Shown: positions 11,201 to 43,772, numbered from the stretch's first letter. The stretch: 64,000 bases of DNA from Raillietiella orientalis (GCA_036172245.1 JAYWIR010000005.1:2294001-2358000); one strand, 5' to 3'. Notes: generated from the letters alone by a model not told the origin. Numbers and translations: made by a program.

Positions 11201-13498
11201 AGCTGATTTTCTACTGGATTTGCAATTTCCTGAAGTGTCCTGGCAAGAATCCAATGAAATTACCATGGACCTTTCAAGACACAGCTTCACAACACACACT
11301 TACTCAAAATGGGTATCATCTAGCTTCATAGCATCACTACACCATTAAAAGCCTTGGACACTGCACCAAAAGTGAAACAAATGTTCTATTCATCGATGTG
11401 ATAGTTTTACATTCAAACAACCTAATAATTAGAGAGTGAATGAAACCTGTTCTAGGCATATTGGGGAAGAGCAATGACCTTTATGATGCTTCCAGCAAAG
11501 CAGCAGAGTACTGAGTCTCATACTGAAGGAGATTTTAAATGCGACTTTGACCCAAATGCACTAAATAATGCAATCGCTAGTGCACCAAAAAAAAAAAAAA
11601 AAAGCAGATCTTCACCACTCATTACTATCAGTATGAATTTTCGAGTAGCATCATTGAACATGATGAATGAACATGAACATGCATGTTCCATGGATGTAAT
11701 CGCAATCTACTACGAATGACAATCAGCATTAACAGAATCATGTTCACACAGGGGTGTCTAAGGAACCTTCACAATGATTGATCCTTACAGTACTGACCAG
11801 GGCATAGACATCATAGCTGAAGACAAATAGCAGTTTCATGATTGAAAGTGCTCTCATAAAATTCAAAAACTATGTTGTTGAAATTTGTTTAACCTGCAGT
11901 GGTATGTTTGCTCATGTAGAATTTTGAAGTGCTCGCTTGCCATCATGATGAGTAATTCTTTAACACTTTAATCCTAACTTGGCAAAATAAGCACAGCATT
12001 AAAATCTTGAGAATGCTTGCTTCCAAATCCAGAACTTATCATACAGGAGTCCTTCTATTGGGAGATTCCACACACGCAATTTTTGAACCAGTTTGAAGTC
12101 ATCTTATCCATCAGGATGAAGAGTCAAGAAGGACAACTAAGGACTTTCAGCTCCAAGAAGCCTACAATTCAGGTTTTTCTGTGTATCACTTCATGCATCA
12201 AGTCACCAGTGTTCACAATCATAAGTGAACTACACAGACAAATTAGGAACCATTTTAAGCATTTCCATTTTAGGGTGCTAACTGAACCTCATTGGAAATA
12301 CAGATAGCAAAAGTTTCCATAAAATGTCTAAATCACATATTCTTTGTACACAATGTACACATGGAGTGTCTTGAAAATTGAAATTATGTATACCTAAAAT
12401 GGTTTTTCCATTTTAAGGTAATGCCTAGAAACAAATTTTTATTAGCTAAACTGAGTTGCATACATGTAAAGAACAGCAGAATACTAAATGTCAGAACAGC
12501 ACCTGCTACCTCCAAAAGACCCAAAATCTTATCAATACAAGAGTGAATAATCACATTTTTCAGGTAAAGTCAAGAAATAAGTTCCACTGAAATTCAAAAA
12601 ACAACACCACAGTTACATCCGCACACAGGAATCACTTCCACCTTCTTGGTACTTCTTGGAGTACCAAGAAGCATGAATATGATACACAAACCAGTACAAC
12701 CTGTATACCCTACATCAAGAAACTAAGCAACCAAACCGATTCCAAAAAGAACGCACTATTCACTGGAAATAACATGGCTTAACTTGAACAGCTCCTTAAA
12801 CATTTGGCTTCTACAATCAAATTTCTGCAAAAGTTGATTCCTCAGAGTGCAGATCAATAGTCTTCCTGCTTTATTACATCAATCGCATTTTTCTTGAACG
12901 CTGAATTCATTACTGGAAACTTGAAAGTACACAACCAAAGACAACATTTCAAAAATTAGCGGTTGTATTTCCCAAGAAAATGCGAAACAAGAAAAATGAT
13001 TCCGTAGGGATTGTTCAAATCAACTAAACACTTGGCTATAAACGGCAAATAGCAACACTATTGTGTTGCTCAACTATTGCTCGTCGTTTGATACAATTTT
13101 TTCAATACATGCCTCTTCCAATCTTCAGTTCTTTTCCACATCATGAAGATTTTGCTTAGCCTGCACAAATCAGAAACCTGCACGCAAACTGTCATTATTT
13201 TCATCATGTACTGATGCATTACCTGTTCTCATTACAGCAAAGGCACGCATCATTCTACACCTATATGCAAGTTATATCATTTTACGAAAATACCAAAGAT
13301 GTGCAAATTAAATATGAACAACGTTGCATGCAATCCTCTAGAAAGTTCAGATATATGAAATACGCTTCCGTCATTTTACATTCGACTATGCATTTAAAAT
13401 GAGCAATTCCATAGATTCATTCAATAATCAGCATACCAAGAATTATGAGTCGTTTGGCATTTCTGTCACAATGGAAAGCGTTAGTTCTATTATTTCAG

Positions 13499-14290
13499 CT
13501 CTGGAAGGGTAATGAAATGAAGCATTAAATTCGTATTTGACTTCAAGAAAACATCTGACTGAAATGGGCGATTATGCATATGCGACACTTCCGCGTCGAC
13601 CAGAACGTGATGGGTAGATTTACCCACAAATATCGAGAGCTCTGGACAAACCAGCAATCCCAGTGCTGGGGTTTGGTCACCAGAGGTAACATCCGAAAAG
13701 CAGTGAAGAAGAATCCCGACACGGACATCGCTCCGTCTGCGGCCGCCAGCAGCTATAGTTGCCGCCAAGTGAACCTGCTGGCGTCTGAAACCGCGGACTG
13801 GACGAACGATCCACCAGCGGACACTCAAGACGATCATCTGATGTTGGATCACGGAGGCATGCTGAGCGGCCCCGTGACGAGACCCTGGCCTTGCAACGCG
13901 CAAAACGAGATGTGACACGCCTGTGGCTCCAGGGAAACCCAACTCCACGCACTCAGCTGCCCGACGCTGCACGGGGACTGAACCAAGCTCAAGGTGGTGA
14001 CAGAATGATCGAGATGGAGGTCGTGGCAAGTGTGCTGGAAAGGAAACGCAGCGTTATTCCATACAACCCAAACGGTCTTCATCACCATCGCCCTCATTGT
14101 TTCGAGCATCGTGATGAGAAGGGAAACTGCGCCGACGGGAACGAGCAATTCTTTTCGCTGTGGAAATGCTGAAAAATTTCGTCAACAAAGACATTGGGAT
14201 CCGAATCTGTGGACGTATTCCCAGTTGGACGTACAGTGGTACTCCTGCGATGCATTCAGGAACATTGTCAAGTGAGTGAATTCCCCACAC
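13499..14290 (+). pseudogene. Decayed exon-like segment of an unidentified host gene
   Basis: GC step-up right after an acceptor-like TATTTCAG. One frame with a few stops runs into ORF 13574-13915 (MRHFRVDQNVMGRFTHKYRELWTN...). Confidence 0.3.
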
Positions 14291-16199
14291 AAATTCACTG
14301 ACTGGATGCCCGAAGACGAACCTTTAAAGTGAAAACCAGTGAGATTGACCAACACTTGTAGGAATGAAAGTTGAAAATAAATTCACTCCACCGCATGACA
14401 GACTGGGGAAAACTGGGAGGTTGTGCATGCACAACGAAGTGCTGCTGCAAGTCGGCAGCAAACCAGATTAAATAAACGGACAGGAGCTTTTCCCTTCCTT
14501 CCCCATCTCCAATCCTAAAACAAGTCAGAACATTTCGCTAATTCTTTCATCTTACGTCGATTAGACTACATGTGTAGAGTAACTCCATCTTTTCAACTTT
14601 CGGCTCAGATTTTCGGGGATTTCTAGCAAGTCTTTTGCATTATGTGTTTTTCGTATTTCAAAGCTTTCATTCCTCTTTGTTTCCTTGTTTTCCTACAGCG
14701 CTTCCATAACCCGCAGTTTATATTTCATTCTAGGACTTCGTTGTGCACTTTCCAGCTGCAAATTGTAACACTTGATAGTGAGCTTCCCACTCTAGAATGC
14801 TCCCTACAAACACACCTTGAAAGCCAAATAATCACACCATGCTCAATTTGCTAACCTTCCCTCACCGATGTGCAACAGGATCATTTTTCCAATGAGACCT
14901 ACGTTTCCCATTAGAATTCAAGTTCTCCCTGGCAGCGGCACAACGGACATTCTCGTAGTTTCTAAACATTTGCAAACACACCTATGCACGTGGGTGTACT
15001 GGTGTACATAGAGTGCACCATTGACTTCAGTACGAATTAGACTTTGAGGATCTCTTTCAGGATAAATGAAGTCATTTTTTACTGAAAGGAATTTTTTCGA
15101 AAACAAAGGGGGTGATTCAGAATACTCAAGAACTGAGACGAAATCGTTTAACTTGCTCAGTTTCCGATATACACTGCTACCTAGATGCTCAAAAGCTAAA
15201 CACATAATTCAACTAAATACAAGTGCACAGATACTGTTTAGACTGAATGTTGATAAAATTTTGAGAGAGTGTGGAAGTTTTTCATAAGGCAACGACCTTA
15301 GAAGTGCTAAGCACGGGTTAGTTTTTTTCACTTTTTCACTTTAGTCTTAGCATCAGATGAATAAAGTCTTTCCCAAGAAATGGAAGGACTAAATCGTCTC
15401 CCTCATGTTGTGGATTCAAAAGACTTTTTCGTATGCTTGATACTAAAAGTGATTGTGTTCCGAGACTATTCAAAGTCAACATAAGCATTAATACGCGCCC
15501 TTTACGCACATCTTCATCCCCGGAAAAATCCCTCCTAATATATTCAAATTCATATGGATTGCTGGAGAGTTTACATCGTAAATGAATTCCTTAAGGATTC
15601 CGCCTTTTCATCTGCTGTAAATTTCGAAGATACAGCGAAGACTTTCTCAGTAGAATCAGCAGGAAATTTTGAAATGTTGGATCATTCTTGAGTATTATTA
15701 AAAACAGAATTAGGGAAAATTAATCTAGATAATGGAAGAAATCATGCATGCGTCTTTAAACAAGAGAAAACAGGTGACCTAGCTCTAAGAATCAAATTTG
15801 CAGGCAACTTCTTTTAAGAAGGTAAGAATAAGTATCTAGAACATGTAAACCGAAGCTGTTTGCCAACCTTTCTTGAAAACATGGAAGCTCTCACTCGAAA
15901 AAGAAATCAAATAGTTCTCGCGATTCAGACATGATGTGAAACACCATACTTTTGAAAAGAGCTGCTAGGTGTTATTTTAGTTACATACTTTGCAAACACA
16001 GACTTCACACGAGCAAGCATTTTGGGGCAAATGAACTGATTTCTATGTTCAAAGACGGCAACCCAAAACATTATAAAACAGCAAAAGCAAGGAGGCAGGA
16101 AAACCGGTGCACCAGGACGGGACCTCGTCCCGTCTCTTCCAAGGGGAGCTTCTCCTGGTGTCGGTAGACGAGGAGCGGCTCGCCTTCCACCTCTTGGCC

Positions 16200-18351
16200 G
16201 AAGTGGACGAGAAGCCGCTGCCGCTGCTGCCCGCGCCGCAGGCAGCAGCGTAGTCCTGGTGGACTTGGGGGACGGGAAGCTGTTTGTCCTCTTCCGCAAG
16301 AGGAGTGCAGCCACCTTCCGGGAGCTCGCCTGCCGGCTCCACCCGGCGTCCTCGGCGACCGAAGACGTCGCCTTCCTGGAAGAGCGCAAAGGCGGAGGCG
16401 AGAGCTGCTTGGAGAGTCTGTTGAAGGTGGCGGAGGAGTGCCACGGGACCCCGAATTCATAAACGCCTGCTGCGCGGACGGCTGCTGATTTCCACAGAGC
16501 CCTAAGAAATACAAGGCGCCTTCTTCGTCCACGGGTACGATGGAGGAGACCATATTCGCCGGTTCGATCCAGCTCGACTTTGAGGACGACTCTCGGGCCC
16601 CGAGGGTCGCAGACCGGGAAGCTGTTCGATCTGGAACACGCTATCGCCAGTCTTAGGCGGGAATTCAGTCTTCCTGCGCATCTTGAGACCGGAGCAGATT
16701 GTCCACTCTGCGCTGATGTTCCGAAAGGTCCTCTAGAGGAAGATCCTGAGGTGGACGCCACCCTCAACGACCTACTGGTAAACGGGGACTAGCTGCTGTG
16801 GTCTTCCCACTCTAAGGGTAGGCGTTCCGTGGGAGTGGGGAACCTGACCGTCTCCAGCACCATCAAAGGGATCTTTCCGGACGATCTCATAGACGTCAGC
16901 TGTGGTGGTGTACGATCACGGGGCTGCTTAGGTATGCAAACGTCGCTGTCCTCGGGGACGTGGAGGTCGCCTCAGGAACCCCTCTCAATTAACTCTACTA
17001 AGAGGACGCCATATGGACGGACGTGCCTTACCAGCAGGTCTCCGGCCCGAGGACCTGGGAAGCCCGAGTGCTCGGCGACTTCGTAGTCTTCGGGACCGTG
17101 AATGAGATGCACCTGCAAGAGTAGTCCGAGTCGGTAATCATGCTCGACGTCTACCAGGAACTGTTCGGAAACTAGGTACTTTCGAGGTGGACTTCCTCAA
17201 CGGTGTGCCTCTGTATGGTTTCCTCGATTCCATGAGGACGATGGCTTTCTCGGAGGCACTAGATTGTTCGCAGCTGCCATCGAGTTAATCGAGACCAGAC
17301 CATAGGCAGCCTTTCCAGAGTAGTGAAGCTACTTCCTCGTCCGATCCTGAAACCAGGAGCTGCTCGCGAGCTTCGCATTCCCTCCCGTGTTTATGCTAGG
17401 AGCGCTGCTCTGTGACCGTCTGAACGGCATGAGATTCAGCGAGGACGTCGTGAGTGCCCAACCTCGTTTCAAGAAACATCGTATTCGCAGCGCTCATCAT
17501 TGTGGCTCCAGGCAACCCACTGTGGTTCATGGGGACCGCGTCTTCAAGGATGACATGCTCTTCAGAGGTTCCGCACGCATGCAAGAAGTCAAAGGGTACG
17601 TTCTCACCTCGCTCGCTCGCACTTACATGGTGAAGTAAGAACCCCAGCTGGTCAACGACGATGTGACGCTTCTGGGCACCGCAGTCTTCGAGAACGATCT
17701 GGTGACTCACAGCATCTGCAAGCATCTGAAGGAGAACTTCGTGATCCAGGACAATGATGTGATCATCACGGGAAGGTTGTCTTTTGAGGATGCCGTAGAG
17801 AACGCGACGACCGCACCCGTGACCATCGTCAACGGAGTGTTGGTGGACTGGGTAGGCCTCTCAGTCCTTTACCACGGCGCCCACTTCTTGCACGAGAGGT
17901 GGTCCGTCCAAGGGTCGATGACGTTCCTGGAATCGGTGCACCTCCATGAGGAGGTCTTAGTGCACGAACGCGTTAACGGCGTCGAGCTGAGCTGCTCTGT
18001 CACACAGCTGGATGGAGAAGTCGAAGTGTCAGGTTCCAAGAGGACGAGGAAATGCTCTGCACGAGACTGCTCGTGACGAGCGACTTCTTGGAGCAGAGGG
18101 TGGGCGGCGTCGACTTTGACAAGCTCGCGTGGAAATATGTTTTCGTTGAGGAACTCGTGGTTGCGCACGGGAGAGTCAGGCTAGAGGACTTCGATGCGGA
18201 CGTTGTCTACGTGAGAGAGATTGGTGACCTTCCCCTTAGGTCCTGCTACCACCTCCTGTTTGGCCCAGCCGGCACCTACAACACGCTGGTGGTACAAGAA
18301 GACGCAGTCTTCGGCGAATCCCTGCTTGTCTCCGGAACCGTCATAAGCTAA
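16200..18351 (+). pseudogene. Pseudogenised large exon of a beta-strand repeat protein, resembling arthropod Polehole/Nasrat/Closca-type vitelline proteins
   Basis: Consecutive broken ORFs (16259, 16580, 17387, 17663, 18052) with recurring VNGV-x(n)-I/V-x-G-xxx-F units: DVIITGRLSFEDAV, IVNGVLVD, SVQGSMTFLESV, RVNGVEL, RVGGVDF. Family assignment is from recalled repeat pattern only. Confidence 0.5.
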
Positions 18352-19456
18352 GAGAGACAAAATGAGTTCTTTCTCAATATTAGCAAATTCAATTCTGAAC
18401 TAACAGATATATGTATCCTGTTCTCCTAGATTACATGAAACTCATGAAAGATTACATGAAAGATTTTTAGGTATGCTTGATAAAAACCTCAAAAAAAAAA
18501 AAAAAAAAAACGCAAGCAAAATCGACGCATAGAATCATTTCCAATTCTATTTTCACGGAAGAAGTATTGCTTTTTAGTCTCTTTAAGAATTGTTTCGTAC
18601 GGCTTAACAGAAAATGTGGAGATGTAAATCCAGAAAGTTGCTTTACTGACTTTCCAAGAAAAAACAGCGCAGTCTGACGCATTGAAAATTAGTAGAAACC
18701 AATTCCCTCATTGCAGAGGATCAATCAGATTTTGCAAACCAGAGTTCAATCCAGCTAAGACATTACTGTTTTCTCCTCTTTGTGAGGTTTGTGAAGTGAT
18801 GAAAAAGTCAGTAATTGAGAACTGCTTTCTCCTTAAAGTTGGTCTTTGACAAGCTAACTGACAGATTTTCTAATATGCGTATGGCGATCCAGAGACATTC
18901 CAATATGTATTTCCAGACCTATATCTGGAATAGAAGGGCAATAATTATGACAAGCATGATCCAACACCGAAACCAAAATCAAACGTGTGGACTAATAAAT
19001 ACCTGCTTTTGAGAGCATGTGATTGCAATCGATATTCCAGTAAAGCAGTTCCTACTGCATATGAACTGAATATTACAGTGAAAAGGACCCTCTGCCAAGG
19101 TTACTTTTCGAAAGTGAATTTCCAGGTTCATTTCTGGAACGTCTATGGGAAATACAGATTATTAAGTGTTGGCAATGCTGACAGGAATGAACAAAGAGGA
19201 AACTGTGAACCATCTTCTGGGCGCATGCTGACAGTTCAAAAGTATGGAGTAAGCGAATTGGTAGTGGAAGGGGAATCCTTTGGAGTATTGAACAGGCAAA
19301 ATATTACATGAATAAACTGTTCCCGTTCATATTGAAGACTGGATATAGTCATGGTTTTGTGTGGAGAAATGGACGTCTAGTATTCAAGCAAAGGTAGGAT
19401 TGCCTGGAGTGATAAGCGTGGAAAGCTAAATGGTATGGACGTTCTTATGGAGGCGC

Positions 19457-19566
19457 GCTTTCTTATGGTTTCGCTTTCGTATGGTTTCGCTTTCGTACGG
19501 TTTCGCTTTCGTACGGTTTCGCTTTCGTACGGTTTCGCTTTCGTACGGTTTCGCTTTCGTACGGTT
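19457..19566. repeat. Minisatellite, 16-bp unit GCTTTCGTACGGTTTC, about 6.9 copies
   Basis: Directly visible. The first two units carry variants (TTATGG, GTATGG). Confidence 0.95.
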
Positions 19567-21435
19567 ACATAGAATATTTTATTCCTAAACTCTTCCAGTA
19601 GAATGTTAATATTGTTCAGTAACTATTGAGAGTGGTGGGATATGGCAGAGTTTCTACTGACCCGCTGTTAACATGTGAGTAGTTTTCCAATGTGTTTGTT
19701 AGTGCGGGTAGGAAGGTTTCATTGATCTAAATTTTAATGAAATTGATTACTGTTTCATCTCATTGAGAGAGCTACAAGCAGAGTGGCAGATTTAATTCAG
19801 GTGATTCCAAGAACACTGGTTTTCCTATTTTGAGCGAATCCCAAAAGATTTTCTCAGAACAGCAATTCACTTTTGTTATTTCCTAAATTTTTTCTTTGTA
19901 TTACACATTTCTTATGTGAGAAATGTAGTTTTCTTGCATAGCAGTGATGGGTGTTTGATAGCATTTGGTTTCACAGGCCTGTAAGTTTGTGTTGTAAGTT
20001 TTGCTTATATTGTGCGCACATGTTTGAATGTGGTAAGGGTGGTTTCTTCAGTATATCAACCAAAAACGCGCAGAGTTAGGTTGGATGTAATGTTGAATCC
20101 ATTTCTGCATGAAATGGTTAGAGCTTGAGGATCCTAATGTTGGTCTTATGCTGCTTACTTTTTGTTTCTGATTGGATAGATAGTTTAAAGGTATGCTGTG
20201 TTATCTATCTGTCAAATAAGCTTATTTTTATATGAAAACAGAAAGTGGAGTGGGTTACAATGAATTGAGATAGTGGCATACCTGATCTGTAAAAGGTAGT
20301 GAACAAGAGAGACTTAGTGTACTAACCATCAGAATTTCGCCAAAACTGTGAGTACACATAAACTGTTTCACTTTGTCCATAGAATGCAGATGTTTGCAGT
20401 GACTTGTAAGGTAGGAATTCTGGCAGCATTTCAAATTACTCTTATCTGAGAACTGATTACAGTTTACATTTAAAGTGTGGTAAAGGAAAATGTAGTTGAT
20501 TGAGGAATGCGTCGGTGAAAATTTACAAAGAGCTTTTTGTTCCTTGCAAAAATAATTCAAAGTAATCTCATCAGAAATTATGACATACCTTGTAACCATA
20601 AAAACTGGTGTGGTGCAGGATTGTGGAACAGTCTGAGACATGGTACGAAATTTTTCTTGCCTTTGGTTTTTAGAGACCAAAACTATGCATCCATTTTTTT
20701 TTTAATTGTAAGCTGTGCTGGGTAGGCTTTCTTTTTTGTGTTGCCAATGATAAGTGCATGTCTGTACAAACAGTGATGCCCACATCTTCTACTTTAGGGT
20801 TGTGCATACCCCTCCTTGAGGTGGGGTTTGGCACAGAGCTTTTGTTTATCCCATCTCAGCATTGCAATGAATCAGAATTTTAATTTGAGATTCGGAATTA
20901 TTCAAAGTATTTTTGAGTATACTGCATGTGAAATGAACGGTAAGGATTTGGTATTAATTTTCTGCATTTGGACTGGGAATACTCAAATTATGCAGTTCTT
21001 TGCTGATAAATTTTTGTGCATATGATTTTTCCGACAGCTTATCTCTCGGTAGTTTCTGACAGGTAGTTTTGGCTTGTTTATGGAATGCACACAGATGAGG
21101 AATTTTCATATACTAGGTCAGCTAAATGCATGATGTGCATCATACGATAAAGTAAATATATAATATGAATAAAGAAATTAATAATATTAATCCGTTGGAG
21201 TTCCCACACATCAAAGTAGTGGGGAAGATTGTGTTCGGTCTTCCTGCTGGGGAAACGACTGTTTAAAGTTACAAACCAAAAATATTTTTTTCGCCGAGAT
21301 CCTTGATGTGGTCCAAACTTGCTTAGTTTCCACTCTTGCACTCAATTGTAAACTGGGAGCGAGGCCACATTATCTGCAAGGTACAAAAAGGATTTCTTTC
21401 ATATGATGGGGTGTTGTAGCTGAACTTATTTCTTT

Positions 21436-21487
21436 GTTGCAAACCCAGGTCGGGGTGCATCTATTTCAAATAAAAATGAATTGTGTT
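21436..21487 (-). mobile_element. Isolated 3' terminus of a Tx1-like element
   Basis: Minus strand TTTGAAATAGATGCACCCCGACCTGGGTTTGCAAC matches the family 3' end. Its last 10 nt (GGTTTGCAAC) are identical to the end of element K at 59482-59491. Confidence 0.55.
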
Positions 21488-22513
21488 GAACATCCACGAC
21501 CTCCATCCGGATGACAGCTGCACCAGAAAGACAAAGGGACCGCGCGGAGTAAACCAGGATTCATATTGAGCGTCTTGCTATTTAATATATCTATTTAACC
21601 AGTACTGCGCGAGTGCAAATCCAAATGTCAACAGGACTGGATAGCATATGCAGGCTATTTCGCCCGAATGGCTCTGAAGATTATCCGAATGACTAGAAGG
21701 ACAGTCACACTTTCTTCAAAATCTCTGCAAGAAAATCATCCTCATAAATCGAAAGTGCCCCACGTTACACGCAAGTTCTGTCTCAAGAGGCGCCCCTGCA
21801 TCGGCAGCCTATTCAAAGGATCAAAACTATCAATACTAGACATGCGGTGACAACTGCATACCCGGCGACTGAGAGGTTTACAGTTTTGTGTGCTATTATA
21901 GATGGTCCTCCACATGGTAGAGTGGGTCCGTTTATCCGTTGACGTGGTAAACCCTGTCCCCAACTCGTTAGCTTGCCAAGACCAAGCGACGGTGGTCTGG
22001 CCTACACAGACCCGTACCGTGGATAAAGCTCCCGCGTGGTGGATGTCCTTGCCATGTATGAGGATCCCCTCGAAGCCCTCCAAGTGTGGGTACAACACTG
22101 GGTTGACAAGCTCTTCGGTTATCCTGGTTCCGCTTTTCCTCTCTTCGAAAAGCCTTCGTAGATAACCACCTCTAGCAATGCTCCCTAGACCGCTTTCCTC
22201 CAGTCCATTCGTTATCGACTCCTGCGTCTCAAAATTGTAGACTGTATAGGGATAAGCGACTGCGAAGACCGCTAGCTCGGCGGACCTAGTCTACCGGCCG
22301 ACAATGAGAACCGGGTTCATCCATTCATCGAAGCGACTGACTGATACCTGATAAAAACAGTAACCGGATTCCGATGCCCTTGCTCACCCTTTCTAGTGTT
22401 GACCCAGTTCTCCAGCCAGTGCATACACCGGAGTACCTTTCGGGGACCTCCCTGACTGGGCGTGCTTAACCCCCTTGGTCCCGTTTCTTGACGACCTCAA
22501 CCGTCTAGGGGTA

Positions 22514-22591
22514 CCTTGCTGTTATTACTGTTAACAGTATGAGGGGTGTTCCGAGTTTCCGTCTTTCTCTCGCTAAGCGAAAGACGGAGAC
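22514..22591. promoter_or_regulatory. Candidate viral origin/intergenic hairpins
   Basis: TGTTATTAC (22520-22528, one mismatch to NANTATTAC) overlaps the perfect palindrome TACTGTTAACAGTA (22526-22539). A second stem-loop at 22555-22591 has a 12/13-bp stem and 11-nt loop. Confidence 0.4.
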
Positions 22592-22695
22592 TAAGTTTCG
22601 TTACTAAGCGGAAGAAAGTAAGCATAGAGTCTTAATAATAAGTAATTGTTGTTCACTTATCAGTAGGTAGTCATGTCTACCGAAAGGCGGAGGCT

Positions 22696-23639
22696 ATGCC
22701 GGGCGTCTCCCGAAAGAGGAAGTGAAAGGGAATAAGGAGACGAAAGAATATGAAAAGGGTTAGGTTATTGCGTTCACGCAAGGTGTATCGTGGAAAACGA
22801 AGGTTCAGTAGAAGGATAGCAAGAAGGCACGTACCAAGACCGCTGTCATGGAAATCAAGTTATTTGCGAAGAGCTGTGGAGAGGACATCAATGGCACAGT
22901 GTGCATAATTCAAGTATACGAATGAAGACGGGTGGTAAAGTCAACACAAGTTTTATGTTCATGTACAAGGAATTAGAGGGAGCTATGAGAACACCGTTTG
23001 AGAGTTGCAACATGATGGAGATGTGCTCGTACTTCCAATATGTGAAGGCAATAGGACTTAGGGTGAAGGTGGAGTCTTTAACGTTAGGAATGTCAGGAAG
23101 TACAATGGGTGAAGACTTTGGATTGAAGATATCGTACCGTAATTTATTAATATTGGAGCCTGCATACGCTCCTGAAGGAGCGTTTAAGTTTACTGGGAAG
23201 CCTTATAATCAAATCCAGGGTCATTTAAGGAGTTATGAATCAGCTGGGCTTTGGACAAGATATTTTGGTGTAAGAGGGTTGAAGTGGTTCAGCCGCTCCT
23301 CAGTTCGAGAAAAAAAGGAATTAGGAGGTGCTGCAGAGCGATATGTGTATTATAGATGGCCTTGGATGGAATGTGCTCAAGGTGGTGGTCTGGATCCTGA
23401 GACCTACGGGATAATATACATATCCCGTAGTATACATATTTGTATATTATCCCTGGTCGTATACATATTTTGAAGCATATGTCTGGGCAGGAAATTCCTG
23501 CCCAGACGACTTCAAGGATGGTAGCCAGTCTGGAGTGTATCCAGATGTGGGAACACTGAAAGCTGGAATGCCTGTGTACAAGGTCACTCAAAAACTGTAT
23601 CTAGCGTTTAAGGGAAATAGAGACAAAGGTTTATATTGA
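22696..23639 (+). pseudogene. cap: CRESS virus capsid protein, disrupted
   Basis: Arg/Lys-rich N-terminus MPGVSRKRK*KGIRRRKNMKRVRLLRSRKVYRGKRRFSRRIARR. Core YFQYVKAIGLRVKV...WTRYF..YGIIY. C-terminus VYKVTQKLYLAFKG is like circovirus-type Caps. Contains stops and frameshifts. Confidence 0.8.
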
Positions 23640-23782
23640 GAAGTTCTTTGATTTTCATCTAGATACACCGGGTTCGTCGATTGGAGCAGGGACCAAGTCT
23701 ACTGAGCAAGGCTTGGTCTATGGGAGAATCGAACCGACATCATTCATTGTCCATGATGTTTTTCGTCTGTTTGTGGGAATGT

Positions 23783-24667
23783 CTAATCGTTGATGACCCA
23801 TCTGTCTTGGGAAAGTTTGCTGAGGTCTGGTTCTTAATTAGACATAACTATAACGTGGGTGGTGTCAGTATTTTATGCTTCCTTGGTACTTGGGTCGAAC
23901 AAAATACCGTTTTTAATGGTTTCGATAAAACCATATTGGACAAGCTCTTTGTTGTCTCTTGTGAAGTCGACAACAATAATAGGTTCACCGTTGTATAAGT
24001 GAGCCACATCTGCCTTCTTGCAAGATTGCATGTATATTGCTTTCATCCTTAAAAATAAATACTTCGCAAAGGTCGTTTTGCCGGCATTGCCTCTAGAGTC
24101 TTTGACCCAGTAGATGTTTCTTTGATAGGGAGGATTTCGCAACATGTCAAGGATATCCATTTTCCATTCGCGTAGTCGAAGTGTTGCCATGGGATTGGGT
24201 GAGGTTTCATTTCGGAACACTATAGCACTCCTTGATGAAGTTGTGTTGTTTATGTTGCTGCTCTAAAATCTGGTATGATGTTCGATGATGTACTTGTCTT
24301 GGACTCTGGATTTGACGAGATCGAGCATCTGAGAAAATGAAATGGTTATGTACTAATGGTTTACCTTTTTTTCGTATGAGTCCTGGCTGTTATCTTCTGA
24401 TATAGCTCCGTATACCCATGGCGAGGCATCTTTGGAACAATATCGGAGGTTGCTTTCTGCTGATCCATTTGCTTTTTCGAGGTGTGCTTTTCCGAATGGT
24501 GGTCTTCTGATTTGTGGCATTATTCTTGCTTCGATGAGTTTGCGGTACCCTTGCAGATGATGCGTACCATAATCACCGATCTCTTTTGCGTCAACTGCGT
24601 AGGAGCACTGCGTTCGACACCAGTTCTTAACGGCGATAATGTCATCTTGCTTGTATTTGTGGATAGT
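23783..24667 (-). pseudogene. rep: CRESS virus Rep (HUH endonuclease + SF3 helicase), nanovirus/alphasatellite-like, disrupted
   Basis: Motif I remnant TIHKY, motif II HHLQGY, motif III YCSK, Walker A GNAGKTT, Walker B IIVVDF, YGFIETIKNG, motif C HVIVMSN, LSQDRW. Confidence 0.93.
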
Positions 24668-24990
24668 CAAGTCAGATTTGACGAAATGTCTCCTCATCAG
24701 CGCCGAGACAGCACCAGAGGGGCTAGCAGTGCAGCGAAGCATTGAAAGAACTCAGTGGACAGGCCATCCTCACCATGTGCTCCTCGTCTCTTGAGTTCCG
24801 CAATGGAAGAAGCTTGCTGCATCGTCATGGGCTCGTCGACACGCGTGCATTCTTCCTTATTGATTGTGGGTGCATCTCCCAGCAGAAACATTTTAGAGAT
24901 AGTTTTTCGTTGGTGCTCTGACAAACAGCGAGCAGTTATGGCGCCTTTCCAAGCGCCGTATGTCGTCTCGGTAGCAAGGGAATCCGACCG
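24668..24990 (-). mobile_element. Tx1-like ORF2 fragment (pre-RT region) abutting the viral Rep
   Basis: DEPMT..LKRRGAHGEDGLSTEFFQCFA..GDI is homologous to DEPFS..LKRRQAPGQDGLPAEFFQCFA..GDV of element K. Confidence 0.88.
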
Positions 24991-25397
24991 AGCGGCTTAA
25001 GTCCGGTGAACTTGTGATAAATAAATTGGAGCCACATAATATTTAGTTCGCGGCACGAGTAGGAAGGCTTCCTTATCGATAAGGTCGCTCAGAATACATC
25101 TTCATATATGACGCTTTTTATCGTGTCATATACCTGAGCAAAGAATGCCTTTGCATTGGACCAGAGCGGTACGGTCTCTCGTGGATCACCAAGAGGGTGG
25201 TGGCCTGCTACAATCCGTGCAGCTCGCTCGGTAAAGTCTACCATACAGAGGCTTTGGGGTGCTGCCTGAAGTCACTAGGGCGATTGGGCTAACAAACGGA
25301 GCTGACGTATCAGCTGTTATCCGCTGCTTCTTCGGTTCGTAAGCGCTTTGAAGCACTGGGTCGTCTGAAGCGGAGTGCTCTTTGCCCTAGTCTTCCA

Positions 25398-25468
25398 GCG
25401 TAGAGGTATCTCCATAGTGCCGCACTTGGCAGGTAGCGGATTGCGTAGAGGTATCTCCATAGTGCCGC
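25398..25468. repeat. Perfect 26-bp direct repeat GCGTAGAGGTATCTCCATAGTGCCGC (25398-25423, 25443-25468)
   Basis: Directly visible. The second copy abuts the 5'-truncated start of element A1. Confidence 0.9.
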
Positions 25469-27508
25469 GTTGTGGGCAAAACCCAATGTCCTGGGTTACA
25501 CCAGGGCATTCAGTGGTTACGCCGCTGAGCGCGTGACGGTTCGTGCCGAGGGAGGGCTAGCCCACAGACTGCAGGTCGGGGAGGAGATCGACCTGTGGTA
25601 TGTGGGGAAACCCGTTTACTGCGGCTTTTGCCAGGTGTCGGGGCACCTGAAGAAAAAGTGCCCCAACATCGTGTGCTCGGGCTGCGGAGGAAAGGGGCAC
25701 ATCAGACGGATGTGCCCCAACAGCAAAAGGACGTCCCGGTAGGCAAAAGGAAAGAAGAGACGCCTAGGGAAGAAGACAAGGGCCAGGAAATGGCCGAATC
25801 CCGCCCGGCCAACCAACCCGATACTCAGCCATCCTCCAGCGCAGAACCTGCTGGAGAGAACGCCGAGAACGTGGAAGGTTGGCAAAAGGTAGGGAACAAA
25901 AAGCCCCAGAATAAGGAGGCAAAAAAGATAAACAAGGCGGCGCCGAAAAAGCAGAAACCGGTCGTCCGCGCTTGTACGGTGAAAATCGAACGCGTCTCGA
26001 TCGCCAGAGCTGTAAAGAAAGTAACGGTAAAGGCGATCGATACCGTCGATCCTGAGCCGGTCGTGCCCGCAGTGACGTCACCATCAGCTTACGACAATGC
26101 CGTTCCGGCATTGCCAGCGAAGGACGTCTGCGCGCCGATCGATGAAGCCGCTTCCATTGCGCCTGCACCGACTGTCAGTGCGGAAAGCGAGGAGGCGGCG
26201 CGTATAACGGACGCGACCTTCGCGCAGGCCGCGGAAGAGCTGGCAGCCATGTTACGGCAGCCTGCCAATGCCGAGAAAAAGGCCTTGAGACGACCGGCAA
26301 CGGTGAAGGGCCCGGAAAATTCCGAGTCCGAAACCGAAGCCGGTTGTTCTACTTCCGCAGCCGTGCCGAAGAGGAAGGCTGGCAAGAAAACCGGTTGCCC
26401 GAGATGTGTCGCCCCTCCGCAGGTGGAGGAGGCCATGTCGTCGGGCACGGAGGAGGAGGCAATGTGCGTCGCGCCACGCGACCCCTCTCCGATCCGTGTC
26501 TCGGAAGCCATCCCGATGGATGTCGCTGTGGAAGACGTGCTCCCGTGTGAGCAGCCGACCGTCGTCACGCCCGCCAACGAGCCGCCTCCCGCAAGGGAGG
26601 AGGCCGCCTCCACCCCACAATAAACACACCAATGCGTGGGCTCGCCTCCTGCCGCCGCTTGCGCATCATCTGTTGCAACGTCAACGGGTTGCGCGACGAC
26701 GGTAAGAGGCGAGACGTAGCCGCCATACTGCGAGACTTCGACCTGGTGCTCCTGCAAGAGACGCACGTTCTCAAAGCAGAAGTCCAGGAAATCGAAAGAA
26801 TCGCGGGAGGGCGGCTACTGTGGAGGAACGGAAACGACCGCTCCTGCGGAGTTACCTTTATGCTTAAGCCAGCCGTCGACAACGCATTGCGCAGCGTGAG
26901 GTTCGACGAGGAAGGTCGAGTTGGGCAGCTTGCGTTCAAGTGGTCCGACACGATCGACCTCATAGTCACGAACCTGTACCCTCCGGTGTGCAACCACAGG
27001 GCCGAGGAACGCACTGCGTTCTTCGAATCCCTGCGGCGAGACTCGTTGGCTGAAGAAAGCGTACGACGGGCGCACCCCATTGCGGGCGAATTCAATCTCC
27101 GCCTGCTGGCAGGTGCGCCGTGCATTCGAGCACGACTGGTCAACGAGTTGTGCGCAGCCATCAATGCGCGCAATTTCTTGGGCGGTGATGCCGGGAGAGA
27201 TCGGAACATCGACCACGTTCCTCGACAACCACCTGTGCACGCGGGTGGGAACTCGAGGAACGCTCCCGGCACAGCTGTCCGACCATCCACGGCTGGTGCT
27301 CGAGATACATCCACGTGGCAAGGGCCCTCCCCTGAAAACGTGGCGCCTGCCAGGGGACTGGTTGCGCCTCGCAGGAGCGGCGGAACATCTACGCGCCTTC
27401 CTGCGAGGAATCCATCTTGAGACGCTCGTGGACTGGGACGAAATGAAGTGCTCAGTCCGCGAGTTTTGCGACCAGTTTCCCCTGGAACGTCTTCCGCCGG
27501 GCTTCGGC
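25466..27508 (+). mobile_element. Tx1-like LINE A1: 5'-truncated ORF1 plus APE endonuclease, cut at GFG
   Basis: Two CCHC knuckles (CGFCQVSGHLKKKC, CSGCGGKGHIRRMC). ORF1 stop at 26623. ORF2 from 26632 with CNVNG, LQETH, NLYPP, SDH. Homology ends at LPPGFG. Confidence 0.92.
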
Positions 27509-30507
27509 GTTATCACCCGGGTAGGCCCGGGGCGTTTATTTGTAAACTCTACATGCGTGGTACGAGGCCCCACCACGGCCGTAAACACAGAACCTGTCGG
27601 GACACCGGGACGCAGCCCGGCGTGGCACTCCCCAAGAGCGAAGGAAGAAGGAAATAAGACAAAAATAAAAATAAAAAAAGAAACAAACAAAAAGAAGTTG
27701 GAAGGCAGGGAAGGGATCACTGGTCGCTGTGGGGAGGGCCCATCCGTCGAACGAAGCCCTCGAAGTCTGTCTGCATATTCCCTAGTTGGGGCCATCCGGC
27801 AGCTCTCCGCAAGAAACGTTGGGCATACGGGATGACATCCTTCGCCTGTGAACCCACTCCTTCGTTGTTGGCGTCGCTCCATGCCGCCACGATGCCACGG
27901 ACGCAGCACAAGGCTGCGATGGCTGCGGCTGGCTGCAGTGCGTCCTTCACGAAGAGGGGCCGAAGAACGTCTCTGGGGGTGCTGCCCGTAGGGAGACCGA
28001 GGGTCGTCCCGAACCGTTCCCAAAGGGGACGAAGGGCAGCACAGTCCACAATAAGGTGGGAGAGCGATTCCCTCTCTCCGCACCTGACACACGCAGGATC
28101 CACAACTCCTCTTGTCCACTGGGAGCGCCGTGCGTTGCAGGGTAAACCCCAATGCAACAACAGCAACGCCGACTCTTTCCACTTAAGGGGCAGGATCCTG
28201 GATTCCTGAAGAAGCGGGGGCCACTTCAGCACATCCATAGGGATGGCCAGCAGCTCGCCCCATCTTCTTAGTCCTCGCGGCTGGACGCTCGGTGTCGTGG
28301 CGTCGGCTAGTTCTCCTGTTGTCCAGCCGCTGATCAACTTTTCGCGTCCCTCGATGCAGCAGGAGACTTGCCACCTTGGCGTCCGACTGCTGTAAAGCGC
28401 CCTCCTCAGGAAGGGCAGCGCCGTAGCCAGGCAGGTTGTCTCTGCCCACGTGCTTCTAGCTGGATTCTCCAGGAGATTCCTGAGTGCAGCGGGCGTAGGG
28501 GCTGCATCGGGGACGATTCCACGTTAAATGGCTTTTCTGATTCACCACTGCCCACGTTCCGATGTTCTCCTCGAGCCAGGCGGAGGAGGTGGCGGGGCAG
28601 CAAACCATCCAGCTGTTCTCCATGGCCAACGATGCCATGCGCCCGAGCTGTAGGCCGCATCTTCTGATCTTCCGGCCGGGGCACAGAAGAAAAGACGCGA
28701 GTCCCTCGCACCGGGACACACGACTGGCGAGCAGGCGAGCCGGAATGCACCACGGGGTGCTCCACATCTTCGCTGCGATGGCGAGGGTACGCATTGGCAG
28801 CTGTTTCTCCAAAGGCTCCAGCGTCAGGAGGCTAAGTCCGCCGTCCCGACGAGGAGCGCAAAGGTCCTTCAAAGGGAATCGGGGCGTCCCCTTGCCCCAA
28901 AGGGCGATGCGGAGGAGGTCCTTCGTCCTCTTTTTCACAACTCCTGGGGCGAAGCAAACAAAAAGCAGGGGGCGGAGGAGAGGAGTCGCGAGCGTGTTCC
29001 AAACCGCGGTCCGTTCAGGCAGGAAAAACCTGCCGCCTCGGAACGGGCCGATCGCCGTCTCTACTTTTTGGAGGCAGCTGGACCACGCTTCCGCAGTGGA
29101 GTAGTCCCCCAACGTCACACCAAGGTACTTGAAGTACCTCACCGTGGGAATCCCCAAACGGACCCAGTCCTGCTGCCCTGCCCACGCCGCACCAACTGGC
29201 ATCACGGACGACTTCGCCCTGTTCACCGTAAGTCCGGTCCCGCGGTTGAGCAGGTCGAAGAAATCTCCTACCGCCTTCGCCGGGGTGGACATAGGTAAAT
29301 GGAGCAGAAGTTCGTCGGCATAAACACTTACGGCGGGCGTGTCGGGCCACGAGCTCGGCAAGGGGGCCAAAGTCACCCTGTACGCTCTCAGTACCAACTC
29401 AAAGTAGATGCTAAAGAGCAGGGGGCTGAGGCTATCTCCCTGCCGTATGCCCAGCCCCACCGGCACGCCGTACACCTGTTGGCTGGAAAAGCAGATGTTA
29501 AGGATGGCGTTGCGCCAGCAGGAGCGCAGGAAGGAGAGAAGGGCGGGTGGGAAGCCCATGCGACCCAAGAGCTACCAGAGGAGTTCCTGGTCTACACAGT
29601 CGAACGCCTTATGGAGATCGACTGCGAGCGCTAGAGCCCCCTTCCCAGCCCGGCTGGCGGCCCTAATGTGGGGTTGCCGACTTTCCTTATCCCTTTCTTT
29701 TCTCTTCTGTGCAGGTGCACCCATGTGCTTGCGAAGAAGAGGTTGGCATCCATACTTCGCTTGGGAACAGCATAAGTCTGGTCCGGGCTAATGACGGATT
29801 CTGCCACCTGCCCAGACGCGAAGCCCATGGCCCTGCTATTAATCCTGCATCCGTATTCACGACCGTGATCGGACGCCAGTTCTGTGAATTTCTGAGGTCT
29901 CCCCCTTTCGGAAGGAGCCTCACGCTGTCTGAGCGAAACAAGGCGGGAACATCGCCTTCGTCTCGGTTCAGCCTTATCAACTTAAGCAACAGGGTTGCAA
30001 GCTCTTCCGCGAAGCTCTGAAAGAACTCCGCGGGCAATCCGTCTTCCCCTGGAGCTTTACGCCTCTTGAACCTTTTGATACCGGCGAGAACGTCGCCGGT
30101 GGTAAAAGGGTCGTCGAGGCTCTCCATCTCCTCCTCCTCTATTGCCGAAGCGCCATCCGGAAGCAAGCGCCGAGAGGCGTGTCGATCCGGGTGCTCCCTG
30201 GCGGAAAGGGAGGAAGAAAAACTCCGCACAAGATGCCGTACCGACGCCGTGGACGAACATTCGCGGCTCTGGTCGTCCAGCAAGCTGGCCAACCCGGATT
30301 GCCAGGCTTGGCGTTCGGTCCCGGCGCGGTACTCGGCCAGACGAGGGACATTAGGTGTTCTCTCGTACCTACGGGCCTGTAAGTAGGCCCGATGGTTGCA
30401 AGTACCCTCGCCGAATCCGATGGGCAGGCGGTCCAGGGGGAACTGCTCGCAGAACTCCCGGACCGAGGCCTTGAGAAGCTCTAGATCCGAGAGACTCTGG
30501 AGCGTCG
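27509..30507 (-). mobile_element. Tx1-like LINE B1: 3' part (linker, RT, C-terminal Cys motif, 3' UTR)
   Basis: WRPITVVN, GIRQGDSLSPLLF, YADE, FKYLGV, CVRCGERESLSHLIVDC. Stop at 27717. AATAAA-hairpin terminus at 27509-27540. Confidence 0.93.
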
Positions 30508-41802: not shown

Positions 41803-41815
41803 AAAAGGGGAAGAC

Positions 41816-43602: not shown

Positions 43603-43772
43603 CCTGGCAGCTGGTCTTGCTGCACAGGACCACTGCAGGTCTTTTGCCGCGATCTCCTCTCCGCTTCTTTTGTAGTTTCGTTCTGAAAACTTTCCCTCTC
43701 CGGGCACACACGAGCACAATTAACTGATTAGGTTGTCGAGCGCACAATACTTTGAGCCGCGAAGCAAGTTCA

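What the first reader, a model, noticed from the sequence alone, without database searches (positions are those of the whole stretch)
21436..24990. Whole CRESS virus genome enclosed in a Tx1-like retrotransposon shell
Seen, reading the minus strand: Tx1 ORF2 fragment (24990-24668), joined directly to viral Rep, Cap (antisense) and intergenic DNA, then about 50 nt resembling the family 3' terminus ending GGTTTGCAAC (21436). Both retro pieces have the same orientation and correct order. Inference: reverse transcription primed on the element 3' end, switched to a viral template, copied it and switched back; or the virus replaced the element's interior. Either is a direct footprint of LINE-associated endogenisation of an ssDNA virus at the edge of a transposon nest.
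Basis: partly seen in the sequence, partly recalled or inferred. Interest (0 to 1): 0.84.

Follow-up and report, generated by a model that had tools for sequence, protein, structure and literature searches.

The report
Virus fossil between two LINE pieces
A decayed copy of a small circular DNA virus sits in a transposon-rich stretch of a eukaryote genome, fused at its replication gene to a piece of a LINE retrotransposon and perhaps ending in that element's tail, which hints, without proving it, that the retrotransposon machinery put the virus there.

Summary
The viral part is real. The minus strand carries a full-length CRESS Rep (24697-23783) in one frame, with four in-frame stops. A 217-codon antisense ORF with an arginine-rich start is a putative Cap. 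An intergenic hairpin has iteron-like repeats. About 1.1 kb of GC-richer DNA (21476-22553), holding a 182-codon ORF, is unexplained.

The LINE ORF2 piece is real but shorter than stated: 24709-24918, 70 aa, E 6e-15. It has the same orientation as Rep and ends 11 nt before the Rep ATG. No other LINE protein homology lies in 20000-25600.

The claimed 3' end is equivocal. Two nhmmer profiles of the family's true termini do not report it. A covariance model of those termini ranks 21436-21475 as the best non-family hit in the window. That hit aligns end to end and scores 15.1 bits (E 0.57 window-wide, 0.024 in 2.75 kb). This is close to a genuine diverged terminus left out of training (16.1 bits).

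No target-site duplication was found, no canonical ori nonamer, and no genome or reads to look for empty sites or other copies.

My odds: about 50% that both LINE pieces are real, about 40% ordinary DNA-level integration beside a LINE fragment. Whole-genome CRESS fossils and LINE-embedded circovirus fossils are already in print.

The parts
24709..24918 (-). Internal fragment of a non-LTR (LINE) ORF2, from the region just upstream of the RT domain (...KRRGAHGEDGLSTEFFQCFAALLAPLVL). It is truncated at both ends.
   Evidence: HMM of 5 window copies: 43.5 bits, i-E 5.8e-15. tblastn: 4 paralogues at 44-48% aa identity. blastn: 76% over 88 nt to 62079-62164. Nucleotide identity to copies C/A/B/E is only 50-55% over 210 nt, against 68-77% among those four.
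24698..24708 (-). 11-nt junction (TCTCGGCGCTG) between the last LINE codon and the Rep ATG. It may hold a few bases of microhomology with the LINE continuation; this is not significant.
   Evidence: Sequence and alignment to four LINE copies. The Rep Met aligns with the Met of three relatives.
23783..24697 (-). Rep gene of a CRESS-DNA virus, full length in one frame. It carries HUH motif II (HHLQG), motif III (YCSKD), Walker A (GNAGKT), Walker B (IIVVDF) and motif C (VIVMSN). Motif I is degenerate. Four in-frame stops: TAG 24355-24353, TAG 24265-24263, TAA 23875-23873, TAA 23836-23834. No frameshift.
   Evidence: Pfam PF02407 E 2.2e-10. PDB Rep nuclease domains, best E 7e-8. L001 Rep aa 8-286 of 292 aligned in one frame, 29.7% identity, E 7.3e-45. 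All 81 IMG/VR loci held match its N-terminal part.
24329..24364 (-). 36-nt stretch with intron-like ends (GTAAAC...TTCTCAG) that contains the first in-frame TAG. Its length is a multiple of three, so it could be either an unspliced short intron or plain coding sequence with a stop.
   Evidence: Sequence. The relative L001 has no insert here. The Rep of relative L002 is split over two frames.
23474..23782 (.). 3'-3' intergenic region between the Rep and Cap ends. It holds a perfect 13-bp palindrome (23481-23507) and a 24-nt imperfect inverted repeat (23677-23732).
   Evidence: gene ends.
22750..23473 (+). Putative capsid gene, antisense to Rep. The ATG is at 22750, and 15 of the first 30 residues are Arg/Lys in the frame running to 22908. 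The body is in another frame (22820-23473), so there is one frame change within 22820-22908, either a frameshift or a possible intron.
   Evidence: ORFs. The 217-codon length is reached by 1 of 1000 dinucleotide shuffles. Against: no homologue in 1.84 billion representatives, none in IMG/VR or in 81 related loci; no codon periodicity (p 0.99); AlphaFold pLDDT 32.
22554..22716 (.). Intergenic control-like region next to the Cap start. It holds a 17-bp hairpin with a 5-nt loop (22554-22592) and two pairs of 12-nt direct repeats (22573/22604 and 22675/22705) that share CGAAAG-type cores. It may be a remnant of the origin, but has no canonical nonanucleotide.
   Evidence: No NAKWRTTAC match. Only hits with 2 mismatches and no stem.
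21476..22553 (-). Unexplained segment. It is GC-richer (0.49-0.56 over 21800-22600) than Rep/Cap (0.38-0.45) or the host flank (0.32-0.40). It holds a 182-codon ORF (21742-22290, minus strand) with no ATG before codon 125. It could be a third viral gene of a roughly 3.2-kb genome, or DNA of another origin.
   Evidence: Composition. The ORF length is reached by 8 of 1000 shuffles. No homologue or family. No LINE homology. Five of 81 related contigs are circular genomes of 3.4-4.0 kb with extra ORFs.
21436..21475 (-). Candidate LINE 3' terminus: an A/T-rich leader (TTTGAAATAGA), a small GC hairpin and the tail GGTTTGCAAC, ending at 21436.
   Evidence: CM of 5 true termini: 15.1 bits, model positions 1-42 of 42, E 0.57 for the window and best non-training hit; E 0.024 in 20000-22750. 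CM of A/B/C only: 14.0 bits, against 16.1 for the true terminus F. Folds like the family termini, -7.3 kcal/mol. Against: not reported by nhmmer; pairwise p 0.01-0.33; the 45 nt upstream of the 10-mer give p 0.08-0.13.

Best explanation
This is an endogenous, decaying copy of a circular Rep-encoding ssDNA (CRESS) virus. It was laid down together with pieces of one LINE retrotransposon.

Read on the minus strand, the order is:
- a 210-nt internal ORF2 fragment of the LINE (24918-24709);
- about 3.2 kb of foreign DNA, made of Rep, the 3' intergenic region, the antisense putative Cap, an origin-like hairpin region and 1.1 kb of unknown DNA;
- about 40 nt that look like the LINE's own 3'-terminal hairpin module (21475-21436).

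The most economical way to get this order and orientation is as follows.
1. A LINE insertion event began on the element's 3' end at a nicked target.
2. It left that template after about 40 nt.
3. It took up genome-length viral nucleic acid whose end lay at the start of Rep.
4. It finished on LINE RNA again for about 210 nt.

The viral stretch may have been copied by the LINE reverse transcriptase, from a read-through unspliced transcript or from viral ssDNA. Alternatively, viral replicative-form DNA may have been ligated into an abortive insertion. The sequence cannot tell these apart.

Shown: the Rep gene, the LINE ORF2 fragment, their direct fusion and their shared orientation.
Inferred: the 3' LINE piece (about 55% likely to be real), the Cap assignment, the viral nature of 21476-22553, and every mechanistic step.
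For: - The LINE fragment and Rep are fused within 11 nt and share a strand.
- The viral break lies 0-11 nt from the Rep ATG, and the Met aligns with the Met of relatives. A random break of a 2-3-kb circle would rarely fall there.
- With a covariance model of five bona fide termini, 21436-21475 is the best non-family hit on both strands of the 64-kb window. It aligns end to end and stops exactly at the model's last base.
- Within 20000-22750 its E-value is 0.024, and the next hit scores 8.2 bits.
- A model trained on A, B and C alone gives the true terminus F 16.1 bits, this site 14.0 bits and background 11.1 bits or less. It misses the true terminus D.
- The site folds into a leader-hairpin-tail shape like the family termini.
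- Its divergence from copy C is about 62% identity by my count on the alignment. That is in keeping with the ORF2 fragment's 50-55%, as expected if both pieces come from one diverged element.
- GC content changes somewhere in 21171-21500. CpG observed/expected is 0.82 just inside 21436 and 0.63 just outside.
- LINE-embedded circovirus fossils exist in carnivores (PMC11089739, passages read).
- Double template jumps by a LINE RT are described (PMC2104539, abstract in a search listing only).
Against: - Profile HMMs of the same termini do not report the site at E<=100 (3 termini) or E<=1000 (5 termini).
- Window-wide covariance-model E-values are 0.57 and 0.62, and the tool calls them rough.
- 3 decoy hits reach 15.1 bits or more in 190 kb of unrelated viral contigs, though all are AT-rich.
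- Pairwise tests depend on the scoring scheme: p 0.08, 0.33 and 0.01. In that call the terminus of copy D was mis-set.
- The exact 10-mer is specific to copy C and is not the family consensus. It also occurs by chance inside the ORF2-homologous part of copy D, about 430 nt before D's true end.
- I chose the model length and members after I had seen the site.
- No target-site duplication: the longest shared word is 7 nt, and 52% of controls do as well.
- The insert is not a processed transcript.
- 1.1 kb is unexplained.
- No canonical ori nonamer marks where the circle was opened.
- There is only one locus and no genome to search.
Confidence: 0.5

Rival explanations
1. Ordinary DNA-level endogenisation. 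Linearised viral replicative-form DNA was joined by host end-joining into a double-strand break in a transposon-rich region. The break lay beside a stray LINE fragment, or the repair also captured a stray LINE cDNA/DNA fragment as filler. On this reading the 40-nt likeness to a LINE tail at 21436 is chance, and 21476-22553 is either viral or more filler.
For: - The insert keeps genome features that only DNA or a genome-length template has: both genes in ambisense, both intergenic regions and an intron-like stretch.
- nhmmer finds no terminus, and window-wide covariance-model E is about 0.6.
- No target-site duplication.
- The locus is a patchwork of compositionally different blocks.
- In relatives the ori nonamer lies a median 64 nt upstream of the Rep ATG (59 of 80 loci). 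Breaks near the Rep start are therefore expected from nicked or replicating molecules.
- Whole-genome CRESS fossils are common: 17 of 36 Cap-like krikovirus elements are paired with Rep (PMC10193959, passages read).
Against: - A hit of 15 bits or more to the terminus model on the right strand within 1-3 kb is expected by chance about 0.01-0.02 times. This is my estimate from the rates.
- The hit ends exactly at the model's end.
- The LINE fragment shares the orientation of the candidate tail, which is a 50% coincidence under this model.
- The fusion falls at the very edge of a 210-nt fragment.
Confidence: 0.38
2. The virus replaced the interior of a LINE copy that was already there. Viral DNA integrated into a 5'-truncated LINE just after codon ...PLVL, and about 2.6 kb of LINE (RT to 3' UTR) was deleted, leaving only its last roughly 40 nt.
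For: It rests on the same two LINE pieces, in the correct order and orientation. The replaced length is similar to the inserted length: from the equivalent point to the 3' end of copy C is about 2.6 kb, and the insert is about 3.2 kb.
Against: - It needs a deletion that stops 40 nt short of the element's end.
- No trace of the RT or the C-terminal ORF2 remains anywhere in 20000-25600 (best i-E 0.24).
Confidence: 0.08
3. Assembly artefact or contamination: reads of an exogenous virus were wrongly joined to repeat-rich host contigs.
For: No reads or second assembly could be consulted. Repeat-rich regions are prone to misjoins.
Against: - Rep has four in-frame stops, whereas 81 of 81 exogenous relatives have none in their longest match.
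- Cap has a frame change.
- The insert lies 21 kb and 39 kb from the window ends and has different sequence on each side.
Confidence: 0.04

Closest known systems
Endogenous circoviral elements embedded in non-LTR retrotransposons of carnivores (Genome Biol 2024, PMC11089739, passages read; it cites Dennis et al. 2019, which I did not read)
   Same: A CRESS-virus sequence physically fused with LINE sequence in a host genome, with the association attributed to LINE activity.
   Different: The carnivore elements are amplified to many copies. Here there is a single locus. It holds a genome-length ambisense insert (Rep, both intergenic regions, antisense Cap) rather than a gene fragment. The LINE has a hairpin-type, non-poly(A) 3' end, and the far-end LINE piece is not secure.
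Whole-genome CRESS fossils, e.g. krikovirus (Draupnirviridae) Rep+Cap elements in saurians and insects (PNAS 2023, PMC10193959, passages read)
   Same: Rep and Cap lie side by side as an integrated complete genome, with stop codons accumulating.
   Different: The passages I read mention no retrotransposon flanks. The Rep here is only 30-41% identical to its nearest IMG/VR relatives, and its family was not determined.
Chimeric retrocopies made by LINE RT template switching: U6/L1 chimeras (PMC4476161) and the tripartite pseudogene of Magnaporthe (PMC2104539), both seen only as title and abstract in the listing
   Same: Pieces of different templates are fused head to tail in one orientation with a LINE 3' part at the end. 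Two jumps in one event are described.
   Different: The known second templates are cellular RNAs. Here the middle piece would be a 3.2-kb viral genome-length template. The 5' piece is LINE again, and no target-site duplication is seen.
Geminivirus-related DNA / endogenous geminiviral sequences of Nicotiana and yams (Virus Evol 2015, PMC5014472, passages read)
   Same: ssDNA-virus Rep plus origin-bearing intergenic DNA fixed in a host genome.
   Different: Those occur as tandem repeats with a recognisable nonanucleotide stem-loop. Here there is a single copy and no canonical nonamer.

Membership tests
Cressdnaviricota Rep (HUH endonuclease + superfamily 3 helicase) | HUH endonuclease domain with motifs I, II and III | tested here: met
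   Pfam Viral_Rep 41.1 bits (cut-off 26), E 2.2e-10. PDB Rep nuclease domains, 8 sequences at E<=0.1. HHLQG and YCSKD align with relatives. Motif I is degenerate (DLTIHKY against FT[LV]NN).
Cressdnaviricota Rep (HUH endonuclease + superfamily 3 helicase) | S3 helicase with Walker A, Walker B and motif C | tested here: met
   GNAGKT, IIVVDF and VIVMSN align with GGKGKT, VVIFDF and IVVFAN of L001. Pfam RNA_helicase is only weak (E 0.021, below cut-off). The motif names are recalled.
Complete CRESS virus genome | Origin stem-loop carrying a conserved nonanucleotide (NANTATTAC-like) | tested here: not met
   No match in 21300-22760. A 17-bp hairpin with a 5-nt loop and iteron-like repeats is present. 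Relatives have the nonamer in 59 of 80 loci.
Complete CRESS virus genome | Capsid gene (jelly-roll protein with a basic N-terminus) | tested here: inconclusive
   A significant ORF (1 of 1000 shuffles) with an Arg-rich N-terminus in the adjacent frame. No homologue, no codon periodicity, and a fold with pLDDT 32.
Non-LTR (LINE) retrotransposon with APE endonuclease | ORF1 with CCHC knuckle; ORF2 with APE endonuclease and RT | tested here: met
   These hold for the family copies in the window: zf-CCHC E 1e-5, Exo_endo_phos E 3.7e-5 and 1.4e-7, RVT_1 E 1.2e-14. The fragment at 24709-24918 matches their pre-RT region.
Tx1 clade of LINEs | Phylogenetic placement of RT/EN within the L1/Tx1 group; site-specific insertion | not testable with these tools
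   No transposon reference library was available. The PDB search cannot separate clades: R2Bm scores 53 bits and human L1 ORF2p 50 bits. Three of five 3' ends share one target site inside an EN gene. That could reflect site preference, but it was not resolved.
LINE-made chimeric retrocopy (template switching during target-primed reverse transcription) | The LINE's own 3' terminus at the 3' end of the insert | tested here: inconclusive
   CM 15.1 bits: E 0.57 for the window, 0.024 for the region. Comparable to the left-out true terminus F. nhmmer is negative.
LINE-made chimeric retrocopy (template switching during target-primed reverse transcription) | Target-site duplication flanking the whole insert | tested here: not met
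   The longest shared word between the 40 nt after 21436 and 24890-25330 is 7 nt. 52% of 2000 control 40-mers do as well.
LINE-made chimeric retrocopy (template switching during target-primed reverse transcription) | Captured piece derived from a processed RNA (intron loss, poly(A)) | tested here: not met
   The intron-like 36 nt are retained, and the antisense Cap and both intergenic regions are present. The template, if copied, was genome-length.

The most novel reading that the evidence does not exclude
A LINE reverse transcriptase, having started on its own 3' hairpin at a nicked target, jumped onto a genome-length template of a nuclear ssDNA virus. That template was either the viral ssDNA itself or a full-circle unspliced transcript beginning at the Rep start. 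The enzyme copied all about 3.2 kb and then jumped back onto LINE RNA. That would make this locus a fossil of retrotransposon-driven endogenisation of a complete DNA-virus genome, rather than of a viral mRNA.
Probability: 0.3. Interest if true: 0.8.

Novelty: new variant of a known kind. Interest (0 to 1): 0.5.

Why it matters
How non-retroviral DNA viruses enter germlines is mostly inferred, not observed. CRESS fossils are usually put down to illegitimate recombination. LINE involvement has been proposed mainly for mRNA-like fragments. A complete ambisense virus genome bracketed by two co-oriented pieces of one LINE would show that LINE machinery can carry in whole DNA-virus genomes. If the middle piece was copied from ssDNA, it would also show that a LINE reverse transcriptase uses foreign DNA templates in vivo. 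If the far-end piece is chance, the locus is still a fairly young, nearly complete fossil of an unclassified CRESS virus, which points to a host for a lineage known only from metagenomes.

Tried and rejected
- **Genome and reads.** No whole genome is held for this window. No sequencing run was listed and no RNA holder was listed. Empty alleles, other chimeras and small RNAs could therefore not be examined. Earlier scan notes held nothing.
- **Word-indexed protein searches.** These found nothing for either Rep half against longer proteins or for the 182-aa ORF. The tool itself calls such blanks weak evidence.
- **Exhaustive HMMER search with the Cap body.** 0 hits.
- **Protein Atlas.** No usable hit for the 182-aa ORF or for Cap.
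- **AlphaFold on Cap without an alignment.** pLDDT 31.9, unusable, so no fold search was made.
- **RNA searches.** Rfam gave 0 matches at gathering score on the whole window and 0 at E<=1 on 21000-25200. No tRNA was found.
- **Close-relative scans of IMG/VR.** Nothing for Rep's C-terminal half, the 182-aa ORF or Cap.
- **Remnants of the LINE RT or C-terminus near the virus.** None.
- **Ciliate-type genetic code as the cause of the in-frame TAA/TAG in Rep.** Rejected. Table 6 does not mend Cap, and 81 of 81 relatives have no in-frame stop in their longest match.
- **Break at the ori nick.** Not supported. No nonamer was found, and the hairpin at 22554-22592 is intact and internal.
- **Copy D as a second bearer of GGTTTGCAAC at its 3' end.** Rejected. 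That 10-mer lies inside D's ORF2-homologous region, and D's true end is near 53606.
- **Clade assignment of the LINE through the PDB.** Uninformative.
- **DNA folding.** 21436-21760 is no more structured than shuffles (z 0.21). 22290-22750 is modestly so (z -2.65).
Full report
**Setting.** The window is eukaryotic. AT-rich DNA (GC 0.36-0.40, CpG observed/expected 0.38-0.76) gives way at about 25 kb to a nest of GC-rich (about 0.6) LINE copies. These copies have a CCHC-knuckle ORF1, an APE endonuclease and an RT. No genome, no sequencing runs and no earlier notes were available. Everything below therefore rests on the window itself and on public viral contigs.

**Rep.** On the minus strand a Rep gene runs from the ATG at 24697 to the stop at 23785-23783.
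- Pfam Viral_Rep matches its N-terminal part (E 2.2e-10), as do solved Rep nuclease domains (best E 7e-8).
- The Rep of IMG/VR contig L001 aligns over residues 8-286 of 292 in a single frame (29.7% identity, E 7e-45).
- HUH motifs II and III, Walker A, Walker B and motif C are all in place. Motif I is degenerate.
- The initiator Met aligns with that of three relatives.
- The frame holds four stops (TAG, TAG, TAA, TAA) and no frameshift.
- The first TAG lies in a 36-nt stretch with GT...AG ends (24364-24329), which may be an unspliced short intron.
- A recoded host is unlikely. Table 6 leaves Cap broken, and 81 of 81 relatives show no in-frame stop in their longest match.

**Cap and intergenic regions.** Antisense to Rep lies a 217-codon ORF (22820-23473). 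An ORF that long is reached by 1 of 1000 shuffles.
- It is preceded, in another frame, by an ATG at 22750 and a stretch in which 15 of 30 residues are Arg/Lys. This is the usual look of a CRESS capsid.
- It has no homologue anywhere I could search, no codon periodicity and no usable predicted fold. 'Cap' is therefore an inference.
- Between the gene ends lie palindromes.
- Next to the Cap start lie a 17-bp hairpin and two pairs of iteron-like repeats, but no canonical nonanucleotide.

**The extra 1.1 kb.** From 22553 down to 21476 the DNA differs in composition (GC up to 0.56). It carries a 182-codon ORF on the Rep strand, a length reached by 8 of 1000 shuffles. That ORF has no early ATG.
- It has no relatives and no LINE homology.
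- Relatives of this Rep are mostly about 2.1 kb: the median is 2141 nt and 71 of 81 are under 2.6 kb.
- Five relatives are circular genomes of 3.4-4.0 kb with extra ORFs.
- I cannot say whether this block is a third viral gene or foreign filler.

**The LINE piece at the Rep end.** A profile of five LINE copies from the window matches 24709-24918 (70 aa, E 5.8e-15) and nothing else in 20000-25600. A profile of the RT and C-terminal part matches nothing there.
- The fragment ends at ...LAPLVL, about 25 residues before the RT domain, and 11 nt before the Rep ATG.
- It is divergent: 50-55% nucleotide identity to copies C, A, B and E, which share 68-77% among themselves. Its source lineage is therefore not otherwise present in the window.

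**What the family's 3' end really is.** Four minus-strand copies end at 59482 (C), 27509 (A), 33139 (B) and 56212 (F). One plus-strand copy (D) ends near 53606.
- These ends are defined by where homology to the 3' UTR stops and an inverted endonuclease or ORF1 sequence begins.
- The shared module is an A/T-rich leader with AATAAACGC, a CCGGG/CCCGG hairpin and a short tail.
- Only copy C ends in GGTTTGCAAC. A, B and F end in GGGTGATAAC, GGGTGGCAAC and GGGTGAAAAC.
- The same 10-mer in D lies inside its ORF2-homologous region, not at its end.

**Testing 21436-21487.**
- nhmmer profiles of three or five termini find all true ends but not this site, even at E<=100 (3 termini) and E<=1000 (5 termini).
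- Conditional on the 10-mer, the 45 nt upstream are no closer to A, B and C than random (p 0.08-0.13).
- The best local alignment in 21300-22750 falls at this site under all three scoring schemes, with p 0.08, 0.33 and 0.01 (where D's end was mis-set).
- A covariance model of the five termini, run without filters over both strands of the window, places 21436-21475 sixth, directly after its five training sequences. It aligns to all 42 model positions at 15.1 bits, E 0.57. The next hits score 12.3 and 10.8 bits.
- Restricted to 20000-22750, E is 0.024 and the runner-up scores 8.2 bits.
- In 190 kb of unrelated viral contigs, three hits reach 15.1 bits, all with GC <=0.21.
- A model trained on A, B and C only scores the genuine terminus F at 16.1 bits and this site at 14.0 bits. 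It fails to detect the genuine terminus D, and background tops out at 11.1 bits.
- The site also folds into the leader-hairpin-tail shape.

My reading is that the site behaves like a real but diverged terminus. The chance expectation for such a hit in the relevant 1-3 kb on the relevant strand is about 0.01-0.02. However, the E-values are rough, the models were built after the site was known, and two profile searches are negative.

**Boundaries.** No target-site duplication stands out. GC content changes somewhere in 21171-21500, which is compatible with 21436 but does not prove it. The DNA just beyond the LINE fragment (24919-25300) is GC- and CpG-rich, unlike the AT-rich flank beyond 21436. 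The two flanks therefore do not look like one interrupted host sequence. Later or earlier LINE insertions at about 25.3 kb may have reshaped that side.

**Mechanism.** Three things are shown:
- a LINE ORF2 fragment is fused head to tail with a full-length viral Rep;
- the viral break falls at the Rep start;
- the insert is genome-like and not mRNA-like.

If the far-end terminus is real, the order is what target-primed reverse transcription predicts: LINE 3' module, then foreign DNA, then an internal LINE piece, all in one orientation. The event would start on the LINE's own 3' hairpin, change template twice and truncate at the 5' end. A close variant is an abortive insertion that was repaired by ligating in viral replicative DNA. 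Simple replacement of a LINE interior needs an unlikely deletion end-point. If the terminus is chance, this is ordinary end-joining of viral DNA beside a LINE scrap. In relatives the origin lies a median 64 nt upstream of the Rep ATG, so breaks near the Rep start are also expected from nicked or replicating molecules. I put the LINE-associated reading at about 0.5, plain DNA-level integration at about 0.4, and the rest on replacement or artefact.

**Comparison with what is known.**
- Whole-genome CRESS fossils are known (PMC10193959, passages read).
- Circovirus fossils embedded in non-LTR elements and amplified with them are known in carnivores (PMC11089739, passages read).
- LINE template jumping that makes two- and three-part chimeras is known (PMC4476161 and PMC2104539, abstracts in the listing only).
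- New here, if it holds, would be a genome-length DNA-virus insert between two pieces of one hairpin-tailed LINE.
- I made no exhaustive search for a prior description of exactly this.
- The label 'Tx1-like' could not be tested.

Noticed in passing
window 25400-27507/27508-30505; 31673-33137/33138-36794; 57279-59480/59481-64000; also 55942-56210/56211-56817 and, mirrored, 49995-53606/53606-54352: The 3' terminus of every LINE copy of this family abuts an inverted 5' part (ORF1 and the start of the endonuclease) of a LINE. In A, B and C the inverted part ends at the same endonuclease codon (...GGATTTGG). The inverted part is closest to the endonuclease gene of the very copy it abuts (B+/B 73.5%, C+/C 72.4%, against 60-65% across units). 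No downstream remainder of a 'target' LINE is seen. This could mean recurrent self-targeted insertion, or jumping of the RT from DNA onto a LINE RNA 3' end. It is unexplained.
   Followed up: partly
window 51396-53261 (+) and 23783-24697 (-): LINE copy D has 7 in-frame stops over about 620 codons with no frameshift in one tblastn match. The viral Rep has 4 stops and no frameshift. Stops without indels may point to a substitution-biased decay process in this genome.
   Followed up: no
window 17396-18351: Strong three-base periodicity (chi-square p about 1e-9 to 1e-10) in overlapping ORFs on both strands. GC is about 0.57 and there is no Pfam match. It is probably a real coding region of an unidentified host gene or transposon.
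   Followed up: no
window 19456-19566: A tandem array of a 16-nt unit (CGCTTTCGTACGGTTT), 6.9 copies at 97% match, in the AT-rich flank.
   Followed up: no
window 38530-43719 (-): A second, distant LINE family (25-34% aa identity to the main one) with its own CCHC ORF1 at 42040-43719.
   Followed up: no
window 21268-21277 (-): A one-mismatch copy of the 10-mer (GGTTTGTAAC) lies 168 nt beyond 21436 on the same strand. Matches with up to one mismatch number 9 in the window against 5.3 expected.
   Followed up: no
L033/L036 (one 6716-nt IMG/VR contig) and L063 (7346-nt contig): These contigs hold two or three tandem CRESS genome units that differ by 5-29% (self-alignments at 71-95% identity) rather than identical concatemers. 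They could be mixed-genome concatemers or assembly chimeras.
   Followed up: no
window 8000-21400 versus 21436-30505: CpG is depleted in the AT-rich DNA (observed/expected 0.38-0.76) but close to expectation in much of the viral insert and the LINE copies (0.55-1.31, with the 3' intergenic region and the LINE fragment lowest). This suggests a CpG-methylating host and relatively young insertions.
   Followed up: no
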